Shown: one piece after another, positions 1 to 5,043 of the stretch
Layout of the letters: each line of letters starts with the position of its first letter
Numbering within the stretch: the stretch's first letter is position 1
Origin: a virus
Lineage: Duplodnaviria; Heunggongvirae; Uroviricota; Caudoviricetes
IMG/VR virus record: IMGVR_UViG_2778261641_000005
Coordinates: 1 to 5,269 of that record
Strand: one strand, 5' to 3'
DNA length: 5,269 nucleotides
The notes under the pieces: generated by a model
What the model was told of the DNA's origin: nothing
Databases searched by the model: none
What the model saw: the letters and a program-made list of their open reading frames with translations, nothing else
Made by a program: the position numbers and the translations under genes

Positions 1-852
1 CTGGAAATCCTCGGTACATTCATCGCGGGTGTCTGGGTATCCAAGGTTCTGGGGGCTTTCGGAAAAATATCAGGTTTGCCGGTACCGCCATGGTTAAAAG
101 GCTGGATGGCTTATGCTGCTTATTTGTACTCCGATCGCGAAAATATTGGTGCCAGTGCGAAGTCATCCTGGGATTACACGAAACAAAATATTGGAGATTC
201 ATTGCGCTGGCTTGGCATTGATACCGATTTTGGTCGTAATCCTCATACCGTAAAAGGCGCAAATATTCAGTCAGATATTCCAGGTGCTGAGCCGGAACAA
301 CATGCACAGGCTACGAAGCGAGGAGAACGGAATAACAATCCGGGAAACCTTAATTTTGCTGGTCAGGCGGGGGCTTCTCTTGAACGACCGGGCGGGCGAT
401 TTGCCAGATTTGAAACCGCTTTTGATGGATTACGGGCTCTTGCTCGTCAGTTAATGCTGTACGCCGGACGGGGAATAAACAGTGTGGAGAAAATTATCTC
501 TACCTGGGCACCTGCGTCTGATAATAACAACACAACCGCGTATATCAGGGCTGTATCGCAACGACTGGGAGTGGATCCCCGGGCTGCCCTGAATATGAGC
601 GATCCGCAAACCATGTCAGCATTGATGAGCAGCATTATCCAGCATGAGAATGGAAGAAATATCTATTCTCGAGAGCTGATTAATAAGGCTGCCGTGGCGG
701 GAATTAGTGGCAAAGTGACAGAGGTTAACCAGCAAAATACCTACCATATTTACGGTGGCGGAGATCCGCACGCTGTCGGTAATGAGGTTGCACGTCGGCA
801 ACAGTCTGCAAATGCTCAGGTCATGCGAAGTAATCAGGTGAGGGTGGGTTAG
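1..852 (+). CDS. Probable phage tail tape measure protein, C-terminal part (5' end lies outside the window)
   Basis: Frame 1 is open from base 1 (LEILGTFIAGVWVSKVLGAF... precedes the first Met at 76) and stops at TAG 850-852. A hydrophobic segment near the start is typical of tape measure proteins. It sits immediately upstream of coupled baseplate genes. Product assignment rests on position and composition, not on a search. Confidence 0.55.
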   Translation: MEILGTFIAGVWVSKVLGAFGKISGLPVPPWLKGWMAYAAYLYSDRENIGASAKSSWDYTKQNIGDSLRWLGIDTDFGRNPHTVKGANIQSDIPGAEPEQHAQATKRGERNNNPGNLNFAGQAGASLERPGGRFARFETAFDGLRALARQLMLYAGRGINSVEKIISTWAPASDNNNTTAYIRAVSQRLGVDPRAALNMSDPQTMSALMSSIIQHENGRNIYSRELINKAAVAGISGKVTEVNQQNTYHIYGGGDPHAVGNEVARRQQSANAQVMRSNQVRVG

Positions 853-2808: not shown

Positions 2809-2810
2809 GA

Positions 2811-3275
2811 TTGAATAAGAAAGCCATTTTTATTGCAATAAGTTTACTTGTTCCGATGTCGGGATTATCCGCTCCTGGGAAGTATGAAAAAATGGCTGTT
2901 GATTTAATGGATCAGCAAAAGTTTACGCAGTGGCAACATTACGCCTCTGCTACTCCTTTTTTCGCTATGAATGGTCGCAGATTCGCCATGACCATTGATG
3001 ATTTCGCGGATATAGTCAGCAACTCCTTTCAAGAATGCGAAGACCTGGATGCCTACACCAATCGGAAAGGAGCTACGGATGATTGTAAGTCCTATGTTTA
3101 CAAAGGCATAAAGGAGTGGGTAAACCTCTCTCAAGATAAGTCTGTTAGCGATACAGCATGGAAAATGGGCCAGCGCTATGCCTTCAACACACGTAATCCT
3201 ATTGCCCATAAAAACGCATGGGATTTCAATGGGATGGCGGCCGGTATTCGCGTTGCTAAATCTCAAGGTTATTAA
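2811..3275 (+). CDS. Secreted/periplasmic protein of unknown function with N-terminal signal peptide (cargo gene)
   Basis: Proposed TTG start at 2811 gives MNKKAIFIAISLLVPMSGLSAPGKYEK..., a classic positively charged n-region plus hydrophobic core; GGTGGGG lies 7-13 nt upstream. The open frame reaches back to GTG 2730, but that would overlap the hub gene by 78 nt and bury the signal peptide. The mature part has two Cys (QECEDL...DDCKSY) and no recognised motif. The gene is AT-rich relative to the flanking structural genes. Confidence 0.6.
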   Translation: MNKKAIFIAISLLVPMSGLSAPGKYEKMAVDLMDQQKFTQWQHYASATPFFAMNGRRFAMTIDDFADIVSNSFQECEDLDAYTNRKGATDDCKSYVYKGIKEWVNLSQDKSVSDTAWKMGQRYAFNTRNPIAHKNAWDFNGMAAGIRVAKSQGY

Positions 3276-3344
3276 GTCATGGATGCACCGAAAATCATCG
3301 GTTCTTTCCCGTGTAAAAAAGTGGCTGGGCGATGATTTTTGACG

Positions 3345-3360
3345 TCCATAATATTATGGA
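3345..3360. promoter_or_regulatory. Perfect 16-bp palindrome TCCATAATATTATGGA (candidate operator)
   Basis: The sequence is exactly self-complementary. It lies in the AT-rich intergenic region immediately 3' of a TTGACG hexamer (3339-3344). Confidence 0.5.
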
Positions 3361-3437
3361 TGAACTGTTGCCAATTGCGCTAATTTTAACAAAATAATAC
3401 TGGTTAACGCATTTTTTGAACCATCTGTACACAGTAG

Positions 3438-3466
3438 TTGTCTATACTTTACCTTAAAGGTAAACT
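3438..3466 (+). promoter_or_regulatory. Candidate sigma70-like promoter overlapped by a perfect 17-bp palindrome TTTACCTTAAAGGTAAA (3448-3464)
   Basis: TTGTCT (3438-3443), 17-bp spacer, TAAACT (3461-3466); alternatively TATACT at 3443-3448 as the -10. The palindrome has 8-bp arms around a central A and overlaps the -10/+1 area, about 35-60 nt upstream of the ORF starting at 3501. Hexamer matches are imperfect. Confidence 0.35.
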
Positions 3467-3500
3467 CTGCGCTCCACTGATGTTCACTATGGGAGGGGAT

Positions 3501-3740
3501 ATGAGGAAAATCGTTAATCGTTACTTAGCCGCTGCCGGTAGTGTTATGGACATTATGCCGACTACAGATTACTGGCAATATGCTGCTTCTGGATCTGATT
3601 GTCGGGCAATAAGAAGTGATGTTAAAGTCATTGCAAGTGACATGAACAGAGTTATCAGGTATGAGTTCAAAACCCCGCAAGCAGGCGGCCGTTCTCAAAA
3701 AGCATCAGGAAAACAAAGCGTCGCAAAAAGCCGTTCCTGA
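3501..3740 (+). CDS. Small basic hypothetical protein (79 aa); possible regulator or partner of the downstream membrane protein
   Basis: Strong Shine-Dalgarno GGGAGGGG (3491-3498) sits 2-4 nt before ATG 3501. The frame is open from TTG 3438, but the RBS favours 3501. The C-terminus is Lys/Arg/Ser-rich. The last 80 nt overlap the next ORF in another frame, so reality is uncertain. Confidence 0.45.
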   Translation: MRKIVNRYLAAAGSVMDIMPTTDYWQYAASGSDCRAIRSDVKVIASDMNRVIRYEFKTPQAGGRSQKASGKQSVAKSRS

Positions 3741-4233
3741 TTCGGATGGTATCGACGAAGATATTGATTCCTCGGAATATGATGAGTCTCAGGAAGTAGT
3801 GGAAAAGCTGTCTGCAGTTGCCAACCTTGATCCTGAGCTAAAATCGAAGTTAACACCTGAACTTCTTGAGAGAGTTTCTAAGAACCCGAAGGTTATTGCC
3901 ATGTTTCAGCAGGAGTCTTTTCAGGGACCACTCCCACCTCCTGCTATGCTCTTACAATATAATCAAATATTACCCGGCGGCGCTGAGAGAATTTTCAGGC
4001 TAACCGAAAAAGAGCAAGAGCATAGGCATAAGACGCAAAGTGATGCATTACTTGGTGCGGTTTCACGCGACAAACGTGGGCAATGGATGGGATTTTGCAT
4101 TGCAATGGTAGTGCTTATAATGGCTGCGTTTTTTGCTAATCGCGGTAACACTTGGTTCGCAGGTACTCTTGCTACTTTAGATCTCGTAGGATTAACTACA
4201 GTGTTTGTTTATGGTAGGAAGAAACCTAAATAA
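3661..4233 (+). CDS. DUF2335-like predicted membrane protein (190 aa)
   Basis: Contains FQGPLPPPAMLLQYNQILPGGAERIFRLTEKEQEHRHK, which I recall as the hallmark of the DUF2335 family (motif recall, not searched). This is followed by two predicted transmembrane helices (WMGFCIAMVVLIMAAFFA and FAGTLATLDLVGLTTVFVY) and a basic tail GRKKPK. The N-terminus is a charged low-complexity region. ATG 3661 is the only start in the open frame, and its own SD is weak (AGGT). Confidence 0.7.
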   Translation: MSSKPRKQAAVLKKHQENKASQKAVPDSDGIDEDIDSSEYDESQEVVEKLSAVANLDPELKSKLTPELLERVSKNPKVIAMFQQESFQGPLPPPAMLLQYNQILPGGAERIFRLTEKEQEHRHKTQSDALLGAVSRDKRGQWMGFCIAMVVLIMAAFFANRGNTWFAGTLATLDLVGLTTVFVYGRKKPK

Positions 4234-4248
4234 TCCATACATCCTTTC

Positions 4249-4276
4249 AAACCCGCTTCGGCGGGTTTTTTGCTTT
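4249..4276 (+). terminator. Rho-independent terminator
   Basis: Stem AAACCCGC (4249-4256), loop TTCG (4257-4260), stem GCGGGTTT (4261-4268), running into a T tract (4266-4271) then GCTTT. It lies 16 nt after the TAA stop at 4231-4233. Confidence 0.8.
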
Positions 4277-4290
4277 CTGGAGCCTACTAA

Positions 4291-5043
4291 ATGGCCGTAT
4301 CTGACCAAACCCGCAGCGGCGACCTTGCCGAAACATTCAAATCTGAACGGGAAACCACAAAGAACCAGATCCGCGTCGCTTTGCCTGGCATTATTCAGTC
4401 ATTCGATCCTGACGCGGTTACGGCGGTTGTGCAGCCTGCTATCCGTTACGTTGAGATCGATAACGATGGTAACCGGGTGACAAAACCTTACCCGCTGCTG
4501 GTGGATGTTCCCGTGGTATTCCCAACGGCCGGGGGAGTTACTTTAACGTTGCCGGTGAGCCCCGGCGATGAGTGCGAACTTAAGTTTCAAGACCGCTGTA
4601 TTGATTTCTTCTGGCAAAACGGTGGAGTGCAGGAACCTGTCGACGACCGCATACATGACCTGTCCGACGCCACCTGCTCAGTGGGTCAAATATCTCAGCC
4701 CAACAAAATTAAGAATGTCAGCACCACGTCGGCGCAGCTTCGAAGTGTTGATGGAAGTACGTACATCGACCTTAATCCGGATACGCAGAAAATTAAAATC
4801 GTAGCGCCTGGCGGTCTGGATGTAGTTACCCCGCTGGCCGACTTCTCGGCGAAAGTAACCATTCACGGGCTACTGTCCTGGCTGGGTGGAATGGTGGGGT
4901 CTGTTGCTTCTGGAGTTGCATCCAAAATCACCGGCGCTGTCGAGTTTATCGGTACCGTTAAAGCTAACGGCAAGTCAATTGATGATACGCACACGCACGG
5001 CGGGGTTCAGCGAGGCGGAAGCAACACAGACGGGGTGAACTGA
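4291..5043 (+). CDS. Baseplate central spike / baseplate assembly protein V-like (250 aa)
   Basis: GGAG at 4279-4282 lies 8 nt before the ATG. The N-terminal region resembles gpV/Gp138-type spike proteins. The C-terminus has a Gly-rich region ending in DDTHTHGGVQRGGSNTDG, with a His-x-His motif like the apex of P2 gpV-type spikes. Position is directly upstream of the next baseplate gene. Confidence 0.85.
   Translation: MAVSDQTRSGDLAETFKSERETTKNQIRVALPGIIQSFDPDAVTAVVQPAIRYVEIDNDGNRVTKPYPLLVDVPVVFPTAGGVTLTLPVSPGDECELKFQDRCIDFFWQNGGVQEPVDDRIHDLSDATCSVGQISQPNKIKNVSTTSAQLRSVDGSTYIDLNPDTQKIKIVAPGGLDVVTPLADFSAKVTIHGLLSWLGGMVGSVASGVASKITGAVEFIGTVKANGKSIDDTHTHGGVQRGGSNTDGVN

What the first reader, a model, noticed from the sequence alone, without database searches (positions are those of the whole stretch)
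3501..4233. Small basic protein plus DUF2335-like membrane protein as a candidate two-gene module
The two ORFs overlap, share one promoter and one terminator, and are the only genes in the island with an obvious autonomous transcription unit. The membrane protein has a charged cytoplasmic N-region, the conserved FQGPLPPP...PGGAERI...HRH core and a C-terminal helical hairpin. That is a plausible membrane-targeting effector (abortive-infection or exclusion type), with the small basic protein as regulator, antitoxin or sensor. DUF2335 has no established function to my knowledge, so any function shown here would be new.
Basis: partly seen in the sequence, partly recalled or inferred. Interest (0 to 1): 0.75.

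Follow-up and report, generated by a model that had tools for sequence, protein, structure and literature searches.

The report
Conserved prophage small-protein plus DUF2335 operon
Two overlapping genes inserted among the tail genes of an E. coli prophage form a two-gene unit (a ~65-residue protein plus a DUF2335 membrane protein) that recurs in temperate phages of many bacterial phyla; its function is unknown, and protection of the lysogen at the cell membrane is the best guess.

Summary
ORFs 3501-3740 (79 aa) and 3661-4233 (190 aa) overlap by 80 nt. The second is a clear DUF2335/PF10097 protein (66.6 bits, cutoff 25): a cytoplasmic N-region, the GPLPPP...PGGAERI...HRH core and a C-terminal two-helix membrane hairpin.

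The main new result is that the small ORF, which PGAP does not annotate and Pfam does not cover, is a real gene and an obligate partner. Of 57 distinct DUF2335 genes with upstream DNA, 51 have a recognisable homologue directly upstream, 3 carry its N-terminal motif fused to DUF2335 (Xenorhabdus type), and 3 have an unrecognised small ORF in the same place. The converse held in 6 of 6 loci found with the small protein. The two proteins co-diverge (r = 0.885).

The pair sits in accessory slots of temperate phages. In E. coli, its baseplate hub/spike slot also holds a YafO toxin pair and other cargo.

No known defence, toxin or structural family matches, so function is inferred. The most likely role is a lysogen-expressed inner-membrane exclusion or abortive-infection module. 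The terminator belongs to the phage backbone, the promoter is only predicted, and the small protein's basic charge lies mostly in an unconstrained tail.

The parts
3337..4245 (+). Exchangeable cargo cassette (slot 2 of the hub/spike hot spot). It holds the regulatory region and both genes.
   Evidence: Homology with sister prophages that carry other cargo ends at 3328-3332 and resumes at 4246-4249 (blastn). At least 9 different spans occur at this site in 308 E. coli genomes. G+C is 0.40-0.46 against 0.52-0.57 in the flanks.
3368..3395 (+). Candidate sigma-70 promoter TTGCCA-16 nt-CAAAAT (prediction only).
   Evidence: Consensus scan, 9 of 12 positions matched. The number of such sites in the region does not exceed shuffled sequence.
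3443..3464 (+). A -10-like TATACT (3443-3448) abutting a perfect palindrome TTTACCTT-a-AAGGTAAA (3448-3464). Candidate promoter and operator.
   Evidence: Inverted repeat I4. It is identical in the 80%-identical relative L006. TTACC-N1-7-GGTAA occurs 32 times in 941 kb of collected loci, and 21 of those lie within 150 nt upstream of the small ORF, in 9 distinct contexts. In several of them it follows a TAAGAT or TAATCT -10 that has a good -35.
3491..3498 (+). Shine-Dalgarno sequence GGGAGGGG of the small gene.
   Evidence: Read from the sequence. A GGAGG at the same spacing precedes the homologous start codon in L006, L009, L015, L020 and L022.
3501..3740 (+). Gene for the small partner protein (79 aa). 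The conserved domain is residues 1-~55 (3501-3665). Motif 1 is RYLxAAGSVMDIMPxTDY. Motif 2 is an acidic-stripe helix with D33, D40 and D47. The tail, residues 56-79, is basic and unconstrained.
   Evidence: phrog_26284 E = 2e-12 over residues 1-52. Alignments A1, A2 and A7. dN/dS 0.11-0.44 in five of six pairs; one 30-codon pair gave 1.5. 963 representative clusters in 1.84 billion proteins. No Pfam family. Not annotated by PGAP.
3661..3740 (+). The 80-nt overlap of the two genes (DUF2335 in the +1 frame).
   Evidence: The overlap is retained in L006. In relatives the junction ranges from a 3-nt gap to an overlap of about 60 nt. In this stretch the DUF2335 frame is the constrained one (pS 0.25 > pN 0.16).
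3661..4233 (+). Gene for the DUF2335 membrane protein (190 aa). It has a basic N-terminus MSSKPRK, an acidic variable linker, a conserved core and a two-helix membrane hairpin.
   Evidence: PF10097 E = 1.8e-18. phrog_3996 E = 1.2e-46. PGAP annotates the same start in E. coli genomes. The N-terminal K-P-[RK]-[KP] motif recurs in the distant homologues MD8 and RAH1. The AF2 model has mean pLDDT 76.
3934..4083 (+). DUF2335 core (residues 92-141). Invariant residues are P92, P94, R110 and G140. Nearly invariant are Y100, G106, A108, E109, E116, R139 and Q141.
   Evidence: Pfam envelope. Conservation across 30 homologues down to 31% identity. AF2 predicts helix 94-103 and a continuous helix 107-160 that runs into the membrane, with pLDDT 85-92.
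4084..4215 (+). Membrane hairpin: TM1 W142-A159, loop NRGNT, TM2 W165-G185. It is followed by the basic tail RKKPK.
   Evidence: Hydrophobic segments read from the translation. AF2 helices 107-160 and 164-187. Conserved in all homologues.
4249..4278 (+). Intrinsic terminator (8-bp stem AAACCCGC/GCGGGTTT, loop TTCG, T run). It ends the unit but belongs to the phage backbone.
   Evidence: Terminator scan. Prophages with other cargo share the sequence from 4246-4249 onward.

Best explanation
The region is a horizontally exchanged accessory cassette (a 'moron') inserted between the baseplate-hub and spike genes of an E. coli myovirus prophage. It encodes a conserved two-protein unit.

The small partner is about 65 residues in most relatives and 79 here. 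The second protein is DUF2335. Its conserved cytoplasmic helix continues directly into a holin-like two-helix membrane hairpin.

Shown here: the two genes are translationally linked, always occur together, co-diverge, and are fused in one lineage. They therefore almost certainly act as one complex at the cytoplasmic face of the inner membrane.

Inferred: the unit is transcribed on its own in the lysogen and protects it against other phages at the membrane. It could do so in two ways. It could block genome entry (superinfection exclusion). Alternatively, it could permeabilise the membrane through the hairpin when the partner/DUF2335 complex is disturbed (abortive infection, Rex-like or toxin-antitoxin-like). 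In both cases the small protein would act as the controlling subunit.
For: Module:
- Of 61 distinct DUF2335 cores, 51 have a small-partner homologue immediately upstream. Three carry partner motif 1 fused to their N-terminus. Four lack upstream DNA. Three have an unrecognised small overlapping ORF in the same position (details).
- All 6 loci retrieved with the small protein have DUF2335 directly downstream.
- Pairwise distances of the two proteins correlate with r = 0.885, and 0 of 2000 Mantel permutations reach that value.
- The Xenorhabdus-type fusions are seen.
- The small ORF is under purifying selection in five of six pairs compared.

Lysogeny-associated accessory role:
- The site is exchangeable and has low G+C.
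- The pair lies in the tube-chaperone/tape-measure slot of siphovirus prophages. This is the slot of the HK97 gp15 exclusion moron (PMC3594210).
- It lies directly after the cI-like repressor in Proteus prophages, which is the lambda rexAB position.
- It lies next to gtrAB, integrase or att in other elements.
- It lies between the endolysin gene and integrase or att, or the prophage end, in Gram-positive phages, behind a terminator and in front of a canonical promoter.
- It is rare on plasmids (13 of 72,556 records) and rare in deposited phage genomes (26 of 50,697). Those whose context was examined carry an integrase, are prophage-derived or have a temperate-type gene layout.
- Sister prophages carry a YafO toxin pair (PF13957, E = 4e-17) and other membrane or unknown pairs in the same slot.

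Architecture: a cytoplasmic helix continuous with TM1, then TM2, then a basic tail. A palindrome lies at the putative promoter, as in autoregulated toxin-antitoxin operons.
Against: - There is no experimental or homology link to any defence, exclusion, toxin or holin family. PADLOC gave 0 hits and NCBIfam 0. PDB sequence search and Foldseek found nothing, and BFVD returned only other uncharacterised relatives.
- The DUF2335 core is conserved from Proteobacteria to Firmicutes, Actinobacteria, Bacteroidota and Spirochaetes. This is unusual for exclusion proteins that recognise fast-evolving phage parts. It points instead to a conserved host target or a structural role.
- The small protein has no detectable DNA-binding or antitoxin domain.
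- The promoter is only predicted.
- The TTACC/GGTAA palindrome is present in only about a quarter of the upstream regions.
- AF2 of the natural fusion gave no confident docking of motif 1 (pLDDT about 50).
- The only published phenotype is reduced plant maceration by a Dickeya zeae deletion mutant (PMC8809351).
Confidence: 0.4

Rival explanations
1. It is an addiction-type toxin-antitoxin module with no defence role. DUF2335 would be a membrane toxin and the small protein its labile antitoxin and autorepressor. The pair would persist because it stabilises the cassette or the prophage.
For: The layout is that of a type II toxin-antitoxin operon: a small upstream gene overlapping a larger downstream gene, with a perfect palindrome at the putative promoter. 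The same slot holds a YafO-family toxin pair in sister prophages. The pair is retained in a degraded prophage remnant across many Xenorhabdus species.
Against: No toxin or antitoxin family matches either protein. The small protein lacks a recognisable DNA-binding fold. In the Xenorhabdus type the partner motif is fused to DUF2335, which fits poorly with a separately degraded antitoxin. Most upstream regions lack the palindrome.
Confidence: 0.15
2. It serves the phage's own life cycle at the membrane, for example lysis timing as a holin or antiholin-like regulator, or control of induction. It would not protect the host.
For: The C-terminal part (two transmembrane helices plus a basic tail) resembles class II holins or pinholins in topology (the resemblance rests on my own knowledge). 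In Streptococcus, Lactococcus and Staphylococcus phages the pair lies directly after the holin-endolysin genes.
Against: In those phages a terminator and a separate canonical promoter stand between the endolysin gene and the pair. In Gram-negative phages the pair is far from the lysis genes. It is dispensable and replaced by unrelated cargo in sister prophages with the same backbone. No holin family matches.
Confidence: 0.12
3. It is a lysogenic-conversion function that changes host physiology, such as envelope properties, stress response or virulence, and is unrelated to phage-phage conflict.
For: It occupies classical conversion sites: next to gtrAB, and between the endolysin gene and att. 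Deletion of a DUF2335 gene in Dickeya zeae MS2 reduced maceration of potato slices (PMC8809351). The strongly conserved core suggests a conserved host partner.
Against: There is a single screen phenotype, without complementation or mechanism in the passage read. Distribution across hosts with very different life styles argues against a host-specific virulence role.
Confidence: 0.15
4. It is one gene split by a frameshift. Either a sequencing error or a programmed frameshift would join the small ORF to DUF2335 into a single polypeptide like the Xenorhabdus form.
For: The two frames overlap by 80 nt. Natural fusions of motif 1 to DUF2335 exist. One database protein (P0061) reads through from one gene into the other.
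Against: The two-ORF arrangement is kept in dozens of independent assemblies and lineages. The junction ranges from a 3-nt gap to overlaps of up to 80 nt. The DUF2335 start context M-S-x-K-P-R-K is conserved in distant relatives. The required shift is +1, and no slippery motif is visible in 3661-3740.
Confidence: 0.03

Closest known systems
HK97 gp15 moron (inner-membrane superinfection-exclusion protein; YebO family)
   Same: It is an accessory unit inserted among tail genes with deviating G+C. It encodes a small inner-membrane protein expressed from the prophage. Relatives of the DUF2335 pair occupy the very same slot, between the tail-tube chaperone and tape-measure genes (PMC3594210).
   Different: There is no sequence relationship (no hit to HK97; different Pfam and PHROG families). 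gp15 is a single gene confined to Enterobacteriaceae. This unit has two genes and spans many phyla. Exclusion activity is not shown here.
Lambda RexA/RexB abortive-infection system
   Same: It is a two-gene unit with a membrane component. The DUF2335 pair takes the rexAB position, directly downstream of the cI-like repressor and co-oriented with it, in Proteus prophages. Sensor plus membrane effector is the logic proposed here.
   Different: There is no homology. By my own knowledge RexA is about 280 aa and RexB has four transmembrane helices. Here the partner is about 65 aa and the membrane protein has two helices and a large cytoplasmic domain. No depolarisation data exist.
Type II toxin-antitoxin operons (for example the YafO-type pair in the same slot of sister prophages)
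   Same: A small upstream gene overlaps a larger downstream gene. A palindrome sits at the putative promoter. The integration slot is the same.
   Different: Neither protein matches a toxin or antitoxin family. No DNA-binding domain is found in the small protein. The putative effector is an integral membrane protein. A natural fusion of the two exists.
Class II holins / pinholins (for example phage 21 S68)
   Same: Two transmembrane helices joined by a short loop, followed by a basic cytoplasmic tail. The comparison rests on my own knowledge.
   Different: DUF2335 carries a 90-140 residue cytoplasmic N-domain, lies outside lysis cassettes and matches no holin family.
P22 SieA and lactococcal Sie2009-type exclusion proteins
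   Same: They are prophage-expressed inner-membrane proteins of about 160 aa that block DNA entry (PMC10883804).
   Different: They are single proteins with other topologies (three transmembrane helices in SieA), are lineage-restricted and highly divergent, and show no homology to this pair.

Membership tests
DUF2335 (Pfam PF10097) / phrog_3996 | Match to the family HMM above the curated cutoff | tested here: met
   PF10097: 66.6 bits against a cutoff of 25, E = 1.8e-18, full-length match to profile positions 1-50. phrog_3996: E = 1.2e-46.
DUF2335 (Pfam PF10097) / phrog_3996 | Predicted membrane protein with C-terminal hydrophobic helices after the conserved core | tested here: met
   W142-A159 and W165-G185. 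AF2 helices 107-160 and 164-187. Conserved in 30 homologues.
Small-partner family (phrog_26284; no Pfam entry) | Motif 1 (G13-S14, D17, P20, Y24) and motif 2 (D33, D40, D47) in a protein of about 60-110 aa encoded directly upstream of DUF2335 | tested here: met
   phrog_26284 E = 2e-12. Alignments. Position confirmed.
Moron (Juhala/Hendrix sense, as summarised in PMC3594210) | Extra DNA relative to related phages, with deviating G+C | tested here: met
   Exchangeable cargo between conserved flanks. G+C 0.40-0.46 against 0.52-0.57.
Moron (Juhala/Hendrix sense, as summarised in PMC3594210) | Own promoter and own terminator | tested here: inconclusive
   The terminator at 4249-4268 is present but shared by all cargos. 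Promoter candidates are predictions only. Gram-positive relatives have clear terminator-promoter brackets.
Moron (Juhala/Hendrix sense, as summarised in PMC3594210) | Expression from the repressed prophage | not testable with these tools
   This needs transcript data from a lysogen.
Type II toxin-antitoxin system | Toxin belonging to a known toxin family, or shown to be toxic | tested here: not met
   No toxin family in Pfam, NCBIfam or PADLOC. Toxicity could not be tested.
Type II toxin-antitoxin system | Antitoxin with a DNA-binding domain that autoregulates through a palindromic operator | tested here: inconclusive
   A palindrome is present at 3448-3464. No HTH, RHH or AbrB domain is detected in the small protein. 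The PDB profile search gave only chance-level hits.
Known anti-phage defence systems (PADLOC-DB v2) | HMM match to a component of a catalogued system | tested here: not met
   0 families for either protein at E <= 0.1.
Lambda RexAB / HK97 gp15 / P22 SieA / holins | Sequence or fold homology to the named protein families | tested here: not met
   No such families in Pfam or PHROGs. No PDB or BFVD fold match other than uncharacterised DUF2335-like proteins. tblastn hits in phage genomes do not include HK97, P22 or lambda.
T6SS 'DUF2335 phospholipase' effector domain (as written in two T6SS papers) | A C-terminal lipase toxin domain on a MIX/PIX effector, followed by an immunity gene | tested here: not met
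   The protein is a 190-aa helical membrane protein without any hydrolase domain or MIX/PIX region. The papers most likely mean DUF2235, the Tle1 lipases. That reading is my own inference.

The most novel reading that the evidence does not exclude
The small partner and DUF2335 together form a previously unrecognised two-component anti-phage system carried by temperate phages of many bacterial phyla. In this reading the ~65-residue protein holds a holin-like DUF2335 hairpin closed through its acidic-stripe helix and amphipathic N-helix. Infection by another phage then releases the hairpin to block genome entry or collapse the membrane. Such a system is absent from current defence catalogues.
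Probability: 0.3. Interest if true: 0.8.

Novelty: new variant of a known kind. Interest (0 to 1): 0.6.

Why it matters
DUF2335 is a widespread Pfam family with no assigned function. I found no description of its obligate small partner. The partner forms 963 clusters at 50% identity, has no Pfam entry, and is skipped by PGAP in the E. coli genomes examined.

Treating the two as one unit turns an anonymous 'hypothetical membrane protein' into a defined, compact and portable cassette of about 0.9 kb that can be tested directly. The cassette recurs in the sites where temperate phages keep exclusion, abortive-infection and conversion genes.

If it is a defence or exclusion system, it would add a very small, membrane-acting, cross-phylum member to the defence catalogue. 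It would also flag the baseplate hub/spike junction of this E. coli prophage family as a cargo hot spot worth mining. If it is not a defence system, a membrane complex conserved from Leptospira to Staphylococcus phages still points to a common host target.

Tried and rejected
- A word-indexed homologue search with the single small protein found nothing. Relatives appeared only through context look-ups and a profile.
- Locus searches with the broad alignments failed for lack of a conserved stretch. Narrower alignments worked.
- PDB sequence searches with both profiles found no meaningful hit. Foldseek against the PDB found nothing. BFVD returned only two unnamed DUF2335-like viral proteins. The afdb50 library was unavailable.
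- I modelled the natural Xenorhabdus fusion with AF2 as a proxy for the complex. The N-terminal motif came out as a helix, but with pLDDT about 50 and no confident docking, so nothing can be drawn from it.
- The literature lead 'DUF2335 phospholipase' in T6SS effector papers was rejected as a probable slip for DUF2235. This protein has no hydrolase domain.
- A programmed or erroneous frameshift joining the two ORFs was rejected. The two-ORF layout is conserved with variable junctions, and no slippery site is present.
- HRH as a catalytic or metal-binding site was rejected because these residues vary across the family (HRQ, FQH, VQL).
- From memory, I could not match the 3448-3464 palindrome to LexA, CRP, FNR, NarL, CpxR or lambda-type operators. 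No regulator is assigned.
- An alternative internal start for DUF2335 (GTG at V48, after AGGAAG) was considered. It is less likely than ATG 3661 because the N-terminal K-P-R-K motif recurs in distant homologues.
Full report
**What the window is**

The window is the tail and baseplate region of an E. coli myovirus prophage. It contains these genes:
- the C-terminal part of the tape-measure protein (76-852);
- a Dit-like protein (852-1439);
- a baseplate plug (1439-1741);
- the baseplate hub (1744-2808);
- a gpV-type spike (4291-5043).

Between hub and spike lies a low-G+C island, at 0.40-0.46 against 0.52-0.57 in the flanks. The nearest database matches are E. coli prophages. One of them lies between torS and torT in strain KSC64. 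SEN34-like phages share the flanks.

**Check of the observation**

The small one runs 3501-3740 (79 aa) and has a strong Shine-Dalgarno sequence, GGGAGGGG, at 3491-3498. The second runs 3661-4233 (190 aa) in the +1 frame, giving an 80-nt overlap.

The 190-aa protein is an unambiguous DUF2335 member. PF10097 scores 66.6 bits against a cutoff of 25, with E = 1.8e-18. phrog_3996, 'membrane protein, moron', matches with E = 1.2e-46.

The quoted motifs are present: GPLPPP at 89-94, PGGAERI at 105-111 and HRH at 121-123. Two hydrophobic helices (142-159 and 165-185) and a basic tail follow. AlphaFold2 with 30 homologues gives mean pLDDT 76. It predicts a short helix 94-103, a continuous helix 107-160 that carries the conserved core straight into the first transmembrane helix, and helix 164-187.

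An intrinsic terminator lies at 4249-4268.

Two points of the observation need qualification. First, promoter-like sites are no more frequent here than in shuffled sequence. Second, the terminator is not specific to this cassette (see the section on the cassette and its site).

**The small ORF is a real gene and an obligate partner**

PGAP leaves 3501-3740 unannotated in every E. coli genome examined. Pfam has no family for it. It does match phrog_26284 over residues 1-52 (E = 2e-12).

I fetched the DNA around DUF2335 homologues that are 37-81% identical. Each had a 64-71 aa gene directly upstream or overlapping. These small proteins align with the window's at 36-41% identity.

They share two motifs:
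- Motif 1: [RK]-x-x-L-x-x-A-G-S-[VI]-[LM]-D-[IL]-x-P-x-x-x-Y.
- Motif 2: a helix with Asp at heptad spacing (D33, D40, D47), of the form S-D-x-x-x-[IL]-x-x-D-[WF]-x-x-[VI]-G-x-D-[LM]-x-[RK]-[AS].

Across all 123 sequences collected, the 61 distinct DUF2335 cores divide as follows:
- 51 have a recognisable partner immediately upstream.
- 3 carry motif 1 fused to their own N-terminus (Xenorhabdus type).
- 4 lack upstream DNA.
- 3 have an annotated overlapping small ORF of the same size that the profile does not recognise. These are Streptococcus Javan433, Lactococcus D6890 and a Porphyromonas phage.

The partners in the following phages keep one or both motifs: Staphylococcus IME-SA4, Arthrobacter Gusanita, Leptospira LE1, Lacticaseibacillus P2.4, Alteromonas P24, a Ralstonia phage and Pseudomonas MD8.

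The converse test also holds. All six loci found by searching with the small protein have DUF2335 directly downstream. They come from Yersinia, Scandinavium, two Dickeya species and two metagenomic contigs.

Further support:
- Distances between partners and between their DUF2335 proteins correlate (r = 0.885; 0 of 2000 Mantel permutations reach it).
- dN/dS of the small gene is 0.11-0.44 in five of six pairs. The sixth, a 30-codon comparison (L020/L022), gave 1.5.
- A profile of the partner finds 963 clusters at 50% identity among 1.84 billion representatives, nearly all 58-100 aa long.

Within the 80-nt overlap, the DUF2335 frame looks constrained (pS 0.25 > pN 0.16). The tail of the small ORF does not (pN 0.21 > pS 0.12). 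The 79-aa length and most of the basic charge of the window's protein therefore come from a lineage-specific extension. In relatives the gene junction ranges from a 3-nt gap to an overlap of about 60 nt.

**The cassette and its site**

Pairwise blastn against sister prophages sets the limits of the exchangeable segment at about 3333 and about 4246. The terminator hairpin, and everything to its right, is shared by prophages with other cargo. It is therefore a backbone feature.

Among 308 E. coli genomes that share the flanks, at least nine different spans occur. The cargo includes:
- this pair, in about 16 of the genomes listed;
- a 190-aa protein with a YafO-family toxin (PF13957, E = 4e-17);
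- a 243-aa plus 142-aa pair;
- a 176-aa multi-pass membrane protein;
- a DUF4282 protein.

A first slot directly after the hub gene holds a secreted 154-aa protein (2811-3275), which also has alternative alleles.

**Where the pair lives elsewhere**

- Between the tail-tube chaperone and tape-measure genes of siphovirus prophages. Examples are Providencia (next to a colicin-type DNase with its immunity gene), Klebsiella phage RAH1 and metagenomic contigs. This is the slot of the HK97 gp15 exclusion moron (PMC3594210).
- Directly downstream of, and co-oriented with, the cI-like S24 repressor in Proteus mirabilis prophages. This is the position of rexAB in lambda, by my own knowledge.
- Beside gtrA/gtrB at a prophage end in Citrobacter koseri.
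- Next to integrase or att in Pseudomonas MD8, Arthrobacter Gusanita and a high-G+C element.
- Between the endolysin gene and integrase or att, or the prophage end, in Streptococcus, Lactococcus and Staphylococcus phages. There an intrinsic terminator is followed by a canonical promoter.
- As a fused single gene behind a cro-like gene in a prophage remnant kept across many Xenorhabdus species.

The pair is rare on plasmids (13 of 72,556 records). It is also rare among deposited phage genomes (26 of 50,697). Those whose context I examined carry an integrase, are prophage-derived or have a temperate-type gene layout.

**A cis element**

A perfect palindrome, TTTACCTT-a-AAGGTAAA (3448-3464), abuts a -10-like TATACT. 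The pattern TTACC-N1-7-GGTAA occurs 32 times in 941 kb of collected loci. Twenty-one of those lie within 150 nt upstream of the small gene, in nine distinct contexts. In several it directly follows a good -35/-10 pair.

The arm sequence is conserved, not merely the complementarity. That suggests a protein-binding operator and not an RNA hairpin. Only about a quarter of the upstream regions have the element, and I could not assign a regulator.

**What it is not**

- PADLOC and NCBIfam give no hit.
- Neither profile matches any solved structure.
- Foldseek finds nothing in the PDB and only DUF2335-like proteins in BFVD.
- The HRH triplet varies across the family. The invariant residues are P92, P94, R110 and G140, with Y100, G106, A108, E109, E116, R139 and Q141 nearly invariant. 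This argues for a structural or interaction role and against catalysis.
- 'DUF2335 phospholipase' in two T6SS papers is most likely a slip for DUF2235. This is my inference.
- The only experimental datum I found is a Dickeya zeae deletion mutant with reduced potato maceration.

**Mechanism: shown and inferred**

Shown:
- It is a two-gene, translationally linked unit.
- The two genes are strictly associated and co-diverge, and one lineage has them fused.
- It is exchangeable cargo in accessory slots of temperate phages.
- The membrane protein has a cytoplasmic core that is continuous with a two-helix hairpin.

Inferred:
- The two proteins form a complex at the inner face of the membrane.
- A speculative contact is the partner's acidic stripe (D33, D40, D47) against basic positions spaced by seven residues in the DUF2335 helix (R110, K117).
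- The unit is expressed in the lysogen.
- It acts against superinfecting phages, either by blocking genome entry or by hairpin-mediated permeabilisation.

I put about 0.4 on this defence or exclusion reading. The rivals are:
- a pure addiction toxin-antitoxin module (0.15);
- a host-physiology conversion function (0.15);
- a function in the phage's own lysis or induction (0.12);
- a split or frameshifted single gene (0.03).

The two-gene-module statement itself I hold at about 0.95.

**Novelty and score**

The DUF2335 gene is already annotated as such in public genomes. New, as far as the searchable literature shows, are three things:
- the obligate small partner family;
- the universality of the pair across phyla;
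- the hub/spike cargo hot spot.

The kind of element, a prophage moron encoding a membrane function, is well known, so I rate it a new variant of a known kind. Interest is 0.6. It is a well-defined and cheap-to-test candidate, but no function has been demonstrated.

Noticed in passing
window 2809-4248 (between the hub stop and the terminator): The hub/spike junction of this E. coli prophage family is a two-slot cargo hot spot. 308 of 5,426 complete E. coli genomes share the flanks, with at least 9 different insert lengths. Inserts include a YafO toxin pair, a 243-aa plus 142-aa pair with a weak HEPN-like hit, a 176-aa multi-pass membrane protein and a DUF4282 protein.
   Followed up: partly
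window 2811-3275 (+): The slot-1 cargo gene starts 2 nt after the hub stop, with a TTG start as annotated by PGAP. It encodes a 154-aa protein with an N-terminal signal peptide (NKKAIFIAISLLVPMSGLSA) and no Pfam, PHROG, NCBIfam or PADLOC match. Sister prophages carry unrelated 111-117 aa signal-peptide proteins in its place.
   Followed up: partly
window 3280-3336 (+): A short frame reads MDAPKIIGSFPCKKVAGR-stop. It matches the C-terminal end (…MDAPRIIGSFPCKK…) of the alternative slot-1 proteins of L005 and L006. It therefore looks like a 3' remnant left when the 154-aa gene replaced an older allele. The 10-bp inverted repeat AAAATCATCG/CGATGATTTT (3291-3300 and 3330-3339) lies within it.
   Followed up: partly
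window 3345-3360: A perfect 16-bp palindrome TCCATAAT|ATTATGGA lies at the left edge of the cassette. Its function is unknown, and it is not conserved in the 80%-identical relative L006.
   Followed up: no
window 3448-3464; L007, L023, L024, L049, L098, L101 upstream regions: An operator-like TTACC-N(1-7)-GGTAA inverted repeat lies directly after the -10 in several otherwise dissimilar cassettes from E. coli, Klebsiella and metagenomic phages. No known regulator is assigned.
   Followed up: partly
L017 6001-6450, L018, L067, L099 (Xenorhabdus and related): Motif 1 of the small partner is fused to the N-terminus of a 146-161 aa DUF2335 protein, and motif 2 is lost. The gene sits behind a cro-like gene opposite an S24 repressor in what looks like a prophage remnant. 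It is kept across at least ten Xenorhabdus species, which suggests domestication.
   Followed up: partly
L019 6001-7367: In a Bacteroidota-like integrative element, the DUF2335 gene is followed by a SocA/Panacea-domain protein (an antitoxin-type domain) and a 145-aa protein. A divergent small ORF lies upstream.
   Followed up: no
L001 18156-19042 (E. coli KSC64 prophage at torS/torT): The best full-length match to the island lies in a degraded prophage. A truncated head-morphogenesis gene abuts the baseplate plug gene, so the head, tail-tube and tape-measure genes are missing. The cargo island is intact.
   Followed up: no
window 76-852 (+): The C-terminal part of the tape-measure protein matches PHROGs annotated as endolysin or tail-injection transglycosylase (phrog_873, phrog_7182). 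This suggests a cell-wall-degrading domain at the end of the tape measure. It has no Pfam hit.
   Followed up: no
literature (bioRxiv 10.1101/2023.07.16.549128; PMC6267618): Two T6SS effector papers list a 'DUF2335 phospholipase' toxin domain. This is probably a misprint for DUF2235 (Tle1-type lipases) and could mislead annotation transfer.
   Followed up: partly
P0061 (168 aa), P0101 (266 aa), P0127 (193 aa), P0209 (134 aa): A few database proteins carry the small-partner domain with long extra regions. P0061 reads through into the DUF2335 frame, probably through an assembly frameshift. P0101 has an N-terminal hydrophobic domain before the partner domain. None was examined further.
   Followed up: no
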